Positions 19,706 through 20,563 of a stretch of 64,000 bases of DNA are shown in pieces. This DNA comes from the human T2T-CHM13v2.0 reference genome, Homo sapiens: the NCBI RefSeq assembly GCF_009914755.1, contig NC_060946.1; one strand, 5' to 3'. Every line of letters begins with the position of its first letter. The first letter of the stretch is position 1. Below the pieces are notes generated by a model. The model was not told the origin of the DNA and ran no database searches. It worked only from the letters and a program-made list of their open reading frames with translations. A program made the translations under genes and the position numbers.

Positions 19706-20563
19706 TGTTGCCAGAAAGGGGACCCGATCCAGATCCCAAGAGAGGGTTCTTAGATCTCAAGCAAGAAAGAATTTGGGCCACACGCAGTGGCTCGCGCCTG
19801 TAATCCCAGCACTTAGGGAGGCTGAGGCAGGCGGATCACTTGAGGTCAGGAGCTCGAGACCAGCCTGGCCAACATGGCAAAACCCTGTCTCTACTAAAAA
19901 TACAAAAAGTAGCTGGGCCTGGTGGCACATGTCTGTAGTCCCAGCTAGTCGGGAGGCTGAGGCAGGAGAATCTCTTGAACCCAGGAGGCAGAGGTTGCAG
20001 TGACCCAAGGTTGCAAAAATGCACTCCAGCCTGGGCAACAGAGCGAGACTCCATCTCAAAAAAAGAAAACCTACTCTATAGGCAGAGCAGCGGCATGGGC
20101 TGCTCAACTGAATATACTTATAGTTATTTCCTGATTACATGCTAAACAAGGGGTGGATTATTCATGAGTTTCCGGGTAAGGGGTGGGCAGTTCCCGGAAC
20201 CGAGAATTCCTCCTCCTTTTAGACAATATAGGGCAACTTCCTGACGTTGCCGTGGCATTTGTAAACTGTCGTGGCACTGGTGAGTGACTCCAACATGCTA
20301 ATATAGTTGGTGCACAATGAATAGTGAGGATGACTGGAGGTCACTTTTGTGCCCATCTTGGCTTTGGTGGGCTTTGGCTGGCGTCTTTGCCGAATCCTGT
20401 TTTATCAGCAGGGTCTTTGTAACCTGTATCTTATGCTGATGTCCTATCTCATCCTGTGACTTAGAATTCCTAGCCTCCTGGGAATGCAACCCAGTAGGTC
20501 TCAGCCTTTTGTTACCCAGCCCCTAATCAAGATGGAGTCGCTCTGGTTCAACTGCCTCTGACG
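19706..20563 (-). mobile_element. Solo ERV1 LTR, MER41B-like, interrupted by an Alu at 19776-20069
   Basis: Minus strand starts GTCAGAGGCAGTTGAACCAGAGCGACTCCATCTTG and ends GAACCCTCTCTTGGGATCTGGATCGGGTCCCCTTTCTGGCAACA, matching the MER41 consensus ends as I recall them; 4-bp flanks ACTC/GCTC look like a target-site duplication. Confidence 0.85.

What the first reader, a model, noticed from the sequence alone, without database searches (positions are those of the whole stretch)
19706..20563. MER41B-type LTR with an intact STAT1 GAS site in BIK intron 2: candidate interferon-gamma enhancer of a death gene
Seen: a solo LTR starting about 360 nt downstream of exon 2, with a perfect GAS TTCCCGGAA (20191-20199), a degenerate second GAS TTCCGGGTA (20170-20178), and an ETS core ACTTCCTG overlapping TGACG (20236-20246). 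Established: MER41 LTRs with tandem GAS sites act as STAT1-bound, IFN-gamma-inducible enhancers (AIM2 is the classic case), and BIK has been reported as an IFN-gamma/STAT1-induced mediator of epithelial cell death. Inference: this primate-specific retroviral relic may wire or boost BIK in the interferon response. I do not know whether this copy has been tested, and loss of one GAS site may weaken it.
Basis: partly seen in the sequence, partly recalled or inferred. Interest (0 to 1): 0.75.

Follow-up and report, generated by a model that had tools for sequence, protein, structure and literature searches.

The report
Old retroviral LTR in BIK intron
A roughly 50-million-year-old retroviral remnant (a MER41 LTR of the long, B-type form) sits in an intron of the cell-death gene BIK and still carries one intact interferon-response (STAT1) site, but nothing seen here shows that it controls BIK.

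Summary
Window 19706-20563 is one solo LTR on the + strand in BIK intron 2. An Alu (19776-20069) splits it, and 62-65 nt of LTR are lost there.

The family is MER41, long "B-type" form:
- It aligns end to end with many genome copies.
- It keeps the 40-42 nt GAS segment that 16 of 39 sampled copies lack; print gives this as the MER41A/B difference.
- Its two GAS sites are 21 bp apart.
- It matches a printed MER41B-derived 26-nt motif at 25 of 26 positions.

Pairwise divergence suggests about 45-52 My.

The enhancer role is untested here.
- For: an optimal GAS with its CpG intact, rare among copies, and a published BIK promoter construct that did not respond to IFN-gamma.
- Against: mouse Bik, with no MER41, is also induced by IFN-gamma through STAT1. 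Induction is slow (24-96 h). The second GAS is imperfect. The IRF-like stretch is lost. No RefSeq enhancer mark overlaps it. No paper links MER41 and BIK.

It is a plausible, ordinary candidate of a known kind.

The parts
19702..19705 (.). left flank repeat (target-site duplication), ACTC
   Evidence: Matches the 4 nt after the LTR (GCTC, 20564-20567) at 3 of 4 positions. In 25 copies with both ends placed, the 4-nt flank repeat is perfect in 10 and 3 of 4 in 10.
19706..19775 (+). LTR, 5' piece (starts TG)
   Evidence: 683 first-look candidates; 39 non-self copies at 88-95%. In copies it lies upstream of the 3' piece on the same strand. 21 of 25 copies start TG.
19776..20069 (+). Alu inserted into the LTR, ending in an A-rich tail
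   Evidence: Two sub-threshold Metazoa_SRP (7SL) matches at 19777-19893 and 19912-20059. 86% mean column identity to the neighbouring repeat at 20587-20900. Alu subfamily not determined.
20070..20563 (+). LTR, 3' piece (ends CG where 21 of 25 copies end CA)
   Evidence: 3059 first-look candidates; 39 non-self copies at 80-84% over nearly the whole query. Ends placed. The exact resumption point between 20062 and 20071 is ambiguous because the sequence there is A-rich.
20132..20157 (-). 26-nt stretch matching motif M2 of Schmid and Bucher 2010, which that paper says resembles MER41B
   Evidence: 25 of 26 positions, the only match in the window, 0 in 100 shuffles. The window's own 26-mer has 1909 genome matches at 3 or fewer mismatches against 0 for the reversed control.
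20167..20208 (+). segment present in the long (B-type) form and absent from the short (A-type) form; holds both GAS sites
   Evidence: 16 of 39 copies picked by the 5' piece lack 40-42 nt here and 18 keep it. Print: MER41A differs from MER41B by a 43-bp deletion that removes the STAT1 motif.
20170..20178 (+). upstream GAS-like site TTCCGGGTA, one position off TTCNNNGAA, CpG kept
   Evidence: Aligned site fits the consensus in 24 of 29 and 7 of 18 long copies. Centre is 21 bp from the centre of site 1, the spacing print gives for the MER41B consensus.
20191..20199 (+). perfect palindromic GAS TTCCCGGAA, CpG kept
   Evidence: Fits the top MEME motif of STAT1 peaks in print. The CpG dinucleotide at 20195 is CG in 3 of 47 long copies.
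20236..20246 (+). ETS-like core ACTTCCTG overlapping TGACG
   Evidence: ACTTCCTG is inherited (20 of 29 and 5 of 18 copies identical). TGACG is identical in 0 of 47 copies, and its CpG column is CG in 1 of 47.
20564..20567 (.). right flank repeat, GCTC

Best explanation
Window 19706-20563 is a solo LTR of the primate MER41 family (long, GAS-bearing 'B-type' form; print calls the source a gammaretrovirus-like ERV). It inserted in the same orientation as BIK about 45-55 million years ago. An Alu later split it, and 62-65 nt were lost at that site. What remains is a latent STAT1 docking module: one optimal GAS, plus a one-off partner 21 bp upstream. Shown: identity, anatomy, approximate age and the state of the motifs. 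Inferred: the copy is most likely a neutral or at most auxiliary element for BIK. The IFN-gamma to STAT1 to BIK circuit exists in mouse without MER41 and is slow, so the main route probably runs through other elements or indirectly, for example through IRF1. If the LTR acts at all, it would act as at other MER41 copies: IFN-gamma-activated STAT1 dimers bind the GAS and open an intronic enhancer 13.8 kb from the BIK start site.
For: Identity: full-length colinear matches to many copies. It keeps the 40-42 nt segment that 16 of 39 sampled copies lack (print). GAS spacing is 21 bp and the printed motif M2 matches at 25 of 26. It starts TG, has 3 of 4 flank repeat, and the family makes 4-nt flank repeats. 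It is the only copy in the window. Age: K2P of window against 16 less-biased long copies is 0.227 (0.200 without CpG-type columns), like copy-against-copy at 0.234 and 0.207. Print gives 45-60 My. Weak or no role: mouse Bik is induced by IFN-gamma and this fails in STAT1-null mouse cells; human BIK mRNA rises at 24-96 h. A review says IRF1 can raise BIK. Even maximal-score GAS sites were occupied in under 18% of cases in IFN-gamma-treated HeLa. In HeLa only IFI6, IFITM1 and IL4R of 175 induced genes contacted a MER41. No RefSeq enhancer or active-region feature overlaps the LTR. Site 2 is imperfect. The lost stretch carries an AANNGAAA IRF-like core in 6 of 9 intact copies read by eye, and no such core remains in the window's LTR.
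Against: Site 1 is the optimal palindromic GAS with its CpG intact, which is rare in the family (CG in 3 of 47 at that column). The copy keeps 11 CpGs against a median of 4 and a maximum of 10 in 47 copies, and 6 of 16 CpG-type sites against a median of 2; this could reflect protection from methylation. A BIK promoter-luciferase construct did not respond to IFN-gamma, so the human response element lies elsewhere, possibly here. The RefSeq marks come mostly from unstimulated cells. The HeLa capture probe was predicted to reach only about half of MER41 copies. I could not see any ChIP, ATAC or methylation data, nor supplements that may list this copy.
Confidence: 0.62

Rival explanations
1. One reading: the LTR is a working, STAT1-bound, IFN-gamma-inducible intronic enhancer that adds to or speeds BIK induction in primates.
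For: Perfect GAS with intact CpG, the 21-bp partner site, and membership of the subfamily most induced for STAT1 binding (MER41B, ln ratio 2.69) in print. BIK is IFN-gamma/STAT1 induced, and its promoter construct alone did not respond. CpG retention is unusual.
Against: Mouse shows the same induction without MER41, and the kinetics are slow. Occupancy of even the best GAS sites is low. One GAS is imperfect and the IRF-like stretch is lost. No RefSeq regulatory feature overlaps it. BIK is not among the MER41-contacting induced genes in HeLa. No paper holds both MER41 and BIK. The CpG excess is partly explained by GC-rich flanks (53.8% against 34-48%, r = 0.39), and 5 of the 11 CpGs are private to this copy.
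Confidence: 0.17
2. The LTR is regulatory but not for the interferon response of BIK. It could be a constitutive trophoblast-type MER41 enhancer (GATA2/3, MSX2), or an element acting on MCAT, TSPO or TTLL12.
For: Print: MER41A/B/C are enriched in constitutive placental enhancers, which are distinct from the IFN-stimulated ones. The ETS-like core is inherited. Three other genes lie within 45 kb (gene table).
Against: No RefSeq enhancer feature lies over it. I did not test GATA or MSX2 motifs. There is no contact or expression data.
Confidence: 0.07
3. The LTR, being in sense orientation, serves as an alternative promoter giving transcripts that run into BIK exon 3.
For: Same strand as BIK, 2.3 kb upstream of exon 3 (gene table). 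LTRs in general carry promoters (general knowledge).
Against: RefSeq lists one BIK transcript and none starts here. No transcript data were seen, and the promoter parts of the LTR were not examined.
Confidence: 0.03
4. It is a MER41 LTR but would be filed by a curated library under another subfamily (C, D or a hybrid) rather than B.
For: No repeat library is on hand. Seven of the 39 copies picked by the 5' piece fit neither the short nor a clean long form: L068, L070, L073 and L085 cover only part, L078 and L082 reach only 72-74% identity, and L062 carries a different 22-nt deletion. Other forms therefore share the 5' end. I could not find the print-named MER41B near IFI6 to use as an anchor.
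Against: It aligns end to end at 78-85% with the most numerous long form. It has the M2 motif, the 21-bp tandem and the segment absent from the short form. In print A and B are by far the most numerous subfamilies.
Confidence: 0.08

Closest known systems
MER41B LTRs bound by STAT1 after IFN-gamma (Schmid and Bucher 2010; the MER41B copies contacting IFI6 in Raviram et al. 2018)
   Same: Same long form of the LTR. It has the GAS pair at 21-bp spacing, the M2 stretch just upstream, TG start and a 4-nt flank repeat.
   Different: The upstream GAS is one position off. An Alu interrupts the LTR and 62-65 nt are missing, including an IRF-like core seen in intact copies. STAT1 binding at this copy is unknown. 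It is intronic and in sense orientation.
MER41.AIM2, the interferon-inducible element upstream of AIM2
   Same: A tandem GAS pair with 21-bp spacing, the downstream site reading TTCCCGGAA in both. It lies next to an interferon-induced gene.
   Different: It belongs to another subfamily. Only about 34 nt around the GAS pair align, and its own family has 29 candidates against more than 3000 here. It is named MER41E and MER41B. Both of its GAS sites fit the consensus. It sits close to the promoter (220 bp upstream in print), whereas this copy is 13.8 kb inside the gene.
MER41A LTRs (short form)
   Same: The 5' 70 nt and most of the body are shared. 16 of 39 copies picked by the 5' piece are of this form.
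   Different: The short form lacks window 20167-20208, so it has neither GAS site. It usually also lacks 20287-20303 and 20307-20321. In print it shows much weaker STAT1 induction (ln ratio 0.66 against 2.69).

Membership tests
MER41 LTR, subfamily B (Repbase/Dfam name) | End-to-end colinear similarity to the numerous long-form copies | tested here: met
   39 non-self copies at 80-84% over query positions 3-494 of 495. The 18 long copies in the 5'-picked sample run from 72.1% to 83.5%; the 16 kept for dating (L078 and L082 dropped) reach 77.7-83.5%. The 5' piece is upstream and colinear.
MER41 LTR, subfamily B (Repbase/Dfam name) | Presence of the ~43-bp segment with the STAT1 motif that MER41A lacks (print, PMC9963469) | tested here: met
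   The window keeps 20167-20208. 16 of 39 sampled copies lack 40-42 nt there (print).
MER41 LTR, subfamily B (Repbase/Dfam name) | Two high-scoring GAS sites in tandem, 21 bp centre to centre (print, PMC2897888) | tested here: inconclusive
   The spacing is met (centres at 20174 and 20195). Site 1 is perfect. Site 2 departs from TTCNNNGAA at one position. The paper's PWM was not available for scoring.
MER41 LTR, subfamily B (Repbase/Dfam name) | Stretch matching the MEME motif M2 that print ascribes to MER41B | tested here: met
   25 of 26 positions at 20132-20157 on the minus strand, with 0 matches in shuffles. The short form probably shares this stretch, so it marks MER41 A/B rather than B alone (short copies align across it).
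MER41 LTR, subfamily B (Repbase/Dfam name) | Best match to the curated MER41B model rather than A, C, D, E or G | not testable with these tools
   No Dfam or Repbase library is on hand. A print-named MER41B near IFI6 was not found in the 20 kb fetched.
Solo LTR of a class I (gamma-like) ERV | TG...CA termini, a 4-nt target-site duplication and no internal ERV sequence alongside | tested here: inconclusive
   The window reads TG...CG with flanks ACTC/GCTC (3 of 4). The family shows TG in 21 of 25, CA in 21 of 25, and a perfect 4-nt repeat in 10 of 25. There is no second copy in the window. The flanks are BIK exon 2 with intron sequence and an Alu. 'Gammaretrovirus' comes from print only; no core gene was examined.
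IFN-gamma-inducible MER41 enhancer (functional class, as at AIM2, IFI6, APOL1, SECTM1) | Inducible STAT1 (and IRF1) occupancy with gain of active chromatin after IFN-gamma | not testable with these tools
   No ChIP, ATAC or histone data are on hand. RefSeq functional elements show nothing over the LTR. Supplements that list peaks are closed.
IFN-gamma-inducible MER41 enhancer (functional class, as at AIM2, IFI6, APOL1, SECTM1) | The neighbouring gene's interferon induction depends on the element | not tested
   Print shows BIK induction by IFN-gamma in human and in mouse cells, the latter without MER41, and an unresponsive promoter construct. Nothing bears on this copy.

The most novel reading that the evidence does not exclude
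This MER41B-type LTR is the missing IFN-gamma response element of human BIK. On this reading, a primate-specific STAT1 enhancer was laid over an older, slower circuit. That would explain why the BIK promoter alone does not respond, and why this copy has kept its optimal GAS and an unusual number of CpGs for some 50 million years.
Probability: 0.12. Interest if true: 0.55.

Novelty: new member of a known kind. Interest (0 to 1): 0.33.

Why it matters
BIK mediates IFN-gamma-induced death of airway epithelial cells, and the published promoter construct did not explain its induction. If this copy were STAT1-bound and active, it would add a death gene to the short list of host genes with a MER41-derived interferon input. 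It would also be a case where a retroviral relic supplements a circuit that rodents run without it. If it is inert, as I think more likely, it is one of thousands of MER41 relics. It then shows that an intact motif in the right family is weak evidence of function: in print, fewer than 18% of the best GAS sites were occupied in HeLa.

Tried and rejected
AIM2 as a naming anchor. I fetched 78 kb across AIM2. blastn at E 1e-3 found nothing. At word size 7 only about 34 nt around the GAS pair matched. The element there (L032:8120-8720) has its own small family, so I rejected it as an anchor for subfamily B. Print disagrees on its name: MER41B, MER41E.

IFI6 as a naming anchor. Print places a MER41B about 20 kb downstream of IFI6.

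CpG retention as a sign of function. This copy has 11 CpGs against a median of 4 and keeps 6 of 16 CpG-type sites against a median of 2. However, 5 of the 11 are private to this copy, its flanks are more GC-rich than those of all 29 copies with flanks (r = 0.39), and the flanking intron has an ordinary CpG o/e of 0.17-0.18. I therefore do not count it as evidence of regulatory use.

Paralogue comparison as a test of constraint. Window-against-copy distance equals copy-against-copy distance, which says nothing about selection. Orthologues are needed, and no primate genome is on hand.

Literature.
- MER41 with BIK as whole words: 0 papers.
- BIK, endogenous retrovirus, STAT1 and enhancer: 3 unrelated reviews.
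- 'BIK promoter' with STAT1: only Mebratu 2008.
- BIK, IRF1, STAT1 and ChIP: 21 papers, 12 listed by title and abstract start; I read one passage of one.
- Chuong et al. 2016 is not held. What I say of it comes from citing papers.
- All papers were seen as passages from 'find' calls, never as whole texts. No supplements were opened.

Rows dropped. L078 and L082 (72-74% identity, partial) were left out of the distance set but kept in the counts. L071 and L076 are the same pseudoautosomal copy on Y and X and were both counted. The Alu subfamily was not determined.
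Full report
**What is there**

- TTCCCGGAA lies at 20191-20199 (also listed).
- TTCCGGGTA lies at 20170-20178.
- ACTTCCTG lies at 20236-20243 and overlaps TGACG at 20242-20246.

The repeat begins at 19706, 357 nt after BIK exon 2 ends (19349). Exon 3 begins at 22863, so the repeat is in intron 2 and on the same strand as BIK.

The stretch 19776-20069 is an Alu.
- It gives two sub-threshold matches to the 7SL model, at 19777-19893 and 19912-20059.
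- It aligns at 86% mean column identity with the neighbouring repeat at 20587-20900.

The LTR is therefore in two pieces, 19706-19775 and 20070-20563. I searched and compared the two pieces apart throughout.

**Is it real**

The 3' piece gave 3059 first-look candidates in the reference genome. Of the 40 scored, one was the window itself and 39 were 80-84% identical over positions 3-494 of 495. The 71-nt 5' piece gave 683 candidates, with 39 non-self copies at 88-95%.

In fetched copies the 5' piece lies upstream of the 3' piece on the same strand. Nine intact long copies were examined for the gap between the pieces. Eight of them carry 62-65 nt there, and L056 carries 42 nt. The window has only the Alu at that point, so this stretch of LTR was lost at or after the Alu insertion.

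Copies fix the ends at 19706 and 20563. In 25 copies with both ends placed:
- 21 start TG and 21 end CA;
- the 4 nt on either side are identical in 10 and match at 3 of 4 in 10 more.

The window reads TG...CG with flanks ACTC and GCTC, 3 of 4. No second copy lies in the 64-kb window. The flanks are BIK intron sequence and an Alu. This is a solo LTR.

**Family**

No repeat library is on hand, so I named the family from the LTR and from print.
1. Schmid and Bucher 2010 (PMC2897888, passages) report a 26-nt MEME motif, M2, in STAT1 ChIP-seq peaks that "resembles" MER41B. It matches window 20132-20157 on the minus strand at 25 of 26 positions. That is the only match in the window, and none occurred in 100 shuffles. 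The window's own 26-mer occurs 1909 times in the genome at 3 or fewer mismatches, against 0 for the reversed control.
2. The same paper states that the MER41B consensus has two high-scoring GAS sites 21 bp apart, centre to centre. The window's two sites have centres at 20174 and 20195.
3. A review (PMC9963469, passages) states that MER41A differs from MER41B by a 43-bp deletion that removes the STAT1 motif.

To test point 3, I fetched the 39 copies that one search had picked by the 5' piece alone. That choice is blind to the body of the LTR. I aligned each copy to the 3' piece.
- 16 lack 40-42 nt at window 20164-20214. Most of these also lack 20287-20303 and 20307-20321.
- 18 keep the segment.
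- 1 has a different 22-nt deletion.
- 4 do not cover the region.

Two of the 16 are the same pseudoautosomal copy seen on X and Y. The window keeps the segment, which holds both GAS sites, and aligns end to end with the long class.

Intact long copies measure 612-665 nt and short ones about 525-570 nt. Print gives 7190 MER41 copies in six subfamilies, with A and B the most numerous. This fits the near-equal split in my sample.

I conclude that this is MER41, long B-type form. A curated library might still file it under another subfamily, because 7 of the 39 sampled copies fit neither form cleanly. I put that chance at about 0.08.

**The AIM2 comparison**

Across 78 kb around AIM2, blastn at E 1e-3 found no match to either piece. 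At word size 7, only about 34 nt around the GAS pair aligned.

That element (L032:8120-8720, read) has a GAS pair at the same 21-bp spacing. It belongs to a small family of its own: 29 first-look candidates, with the twelve longest matches at 69-79% identity. Raviram et al. 2018 (PMC6292174, passages) call it MER41E. The review calls it MER41B.

**Age**

I used window-anchored pairwise alignments and built no consensus.

| Comparison | K2P, all sites | K2P, without the 16 CpG-type sites |
|---|---|---|
| Window vs 16 long copies of the 5'-picked set (L078, L082 dropped as partial) | 0.227 | 0.200 |
| Those 16 copies vs each other | 0.234 | 0.207 |
| Window vs 29 best hits (biased towards similarity) | 0.184 | 0.157 |

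Halving for a star-like history gives about 0.10-0.115 substitutions per site per lineage. At 2.2e-9 per site per year (a recalled, commonly used rate) that is about 45-52 My. Part of the pairwise distance arose among source elements before insertion, so this leans old. Print gives 45-60 My. The Alu inside shows that the LTR predates that Alu's insertion. I did not determine the Alu subfamily.

**State of the motifs against the family**

| Feature | 29 best-hit copies | 18 long copies (5'-picked) |
|---|---|---|
| Site 1 fits TTCNNNGAA | 22 | 11 |
| Site 2 fits TTCNNNGAA | 24 | 7 |
| Both sites fit | 17 | 5 |
| ACTTCCTG identical | 20 | 5 |
| TGACG identical | 0 | 0 |

The GAS counts are and the last two rows.

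The window has site 1 perfect and site 2 off at one position. Most copies have lost the CpG inside each site while still fitting the consensus. At the aligned dinucleotides, CG survives in 3 of 47 copies at site 1 and 4 of 47 at site 2. The window therefore holds the optimal palindromic form, which is rare in the family.

No AANNGAAA core remains on either strand of the window's LTR. The lost stretch carries one in 6 of the 9 intact copies printed. That count was read by eye, and the IRF core motif is recalled.

**CpG retention**

The 3' piece has 11 CpGs. The 47 long copies have a median of 4 and a maximum of 10. The window keeps 6 of 16 CpG-type sites against a median of 2, and only 2 of 45 copies keep 5 or more.

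Several facts weaken this as a sign of function.
- Five of the 11 CpGs are private to this copy.
- Its flanks are 53.8% GC against 34-48% for the 29 copies with flanks, and CpG count correlates with flank GC (r = 0.39).
- The flanking intron has a CpG o/e of 0.17-0.18, so the region is no CpG island.

I leave this as unexplained and do not count it as evidence of function.

- The copy belongs to the subfamily with the strongest IFN-gamma induction of STAT1 binding in HeLa. The ln ratio is 2.69 for MER41B against 0.66 for MER41A.
- It holds an optimal GAS.
- Mebratu et al. 2008 (PMC2575785, passages) show IFN-gamma induction of BIK in human airway epithelial cells.
- The same paper reports that a BIK promoter-luciferase construct did not respond to IFN-gamma. 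The responsive element is therefore unlocated.

**Function: evidence against**

- The same paper shows IFN-gamma induction of Bik in mouse airway cells and its failure in STAT1-null mouse cells. MER41 is primate-specific, so the circuit does not need the LTR.
- Human BIK mRNA rose at 24-96 h, which is slow for a direct GAS target. That reading of the kinetics is my inference.
- A review says IRF1 can raise BIK (PMC3262563, one passage).
- In HeLa, fewer than 18% of maximal-score GAS sites were occupied.
- Only IFI6, IFITM1 and IL4R of 175 induced genes contacted a MER41. The capture probe was predicted to reach about half of the copies.
- RefSeq lists 12 enhancer and 4 silencer features in the window, and none overlaps the LTR. 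The nearest lie at 14403-14562 and 23736-24613.
- No paper in the library holds both MER41 and BIK. Three further searches found nothing on this link.

**Verdict**

| Claim | Status |
|---|---|
| Observation | Confirmed |
| Family assignment | Supported |
| Age | About 45-55 My |
| Enhancer role | An untested, reasonable hypothesis of a well-known kind |

- I put about 0.17 on any measurable interferon-enhancer role for BIK.
- I put 0.12 on the bolder reading that it is the missing response element of human BIK.
- Most likely it is a relic with a competent STAT1 site that adds little to an older, probably indirect circuit.

Public ChIP-seq and accessibility tracks, and the closed supplements of the three MER41 papers, could settle occupancy quickly.

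Noticed in passing
L032:8120-8720 (G000 chr1:158214119-158214719), upstream part of AIM2: The AIM2-associated MER41 element has a GAS pair at 21-bp spacing but otherwise barely aligns with the window LTR. It belongs to a small family: 29 first-look candidates, with the twelve longest matches at 69-79% identity. Print disagrees on its name: MER41B in a 2023 review, MER41E in Raviram et al. 2018.
   Followed up: partly
window 20070-20563: This copy holds 11 CpGs against a median of 4 and a maximum of 10 in 47 long copies, and keeps 6 of 16 CpG-type sites against a median of 2. Five CpGs are private to it. GC-rich flanks explain part of the excess but not clearly all of it.
   Followed up: partly
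window 19775/20070 junction; intact copies L052, L055, L056, L067, L069, L080, L083, L087, L089: The stretch of LTR missing at the Alu site (62-65 nt in eight of these copies, 42 nt in L056) is A/T-rich. In 6 of the 9 copies read by eye it holds an AANNGAAA IRF-like core. No clear target-site duplication of the Alu was seen, which suggests the loss came with or after the insertion.
   Followed up: partly
window 20587-20941: A second Alu lies 23 nt after the LTR on the same strand. It has about 14 extra G-rich nt in its middle linker relative to the Alu inside the LTR. Sub-threshold mir-1268 and mir-3135 matches in both Alus are ordinary Alu-derived hits.
   Followed up: no
window, whole: Of 13 TTCNNNGAA sites in 64 kb, the one in the LTR is the only one with the TTCC[C/G]GGAA palindrome. 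None lies within 1 kb of the BIK start at 5916. The others inside BIK are at 16633, 18964, 20984 and 23709.
   Followed up: no
L015 (G000 chr5:31473935-31477436): Two matches to the 5' LTR piece lie about 1.8 kb apart on the same strand, so two LTRs or LTR parts lie close together. I did not look further.
   Followed up: no
G000 chr1:27482000-27501999 (L090, L091): No match to either LTR piece was found where print places a MER41B about 20 kb downstream of IFI6. Either the distance is reckoned differently or the copy lies outside the 20 kb fetched.
   Followed up: partly
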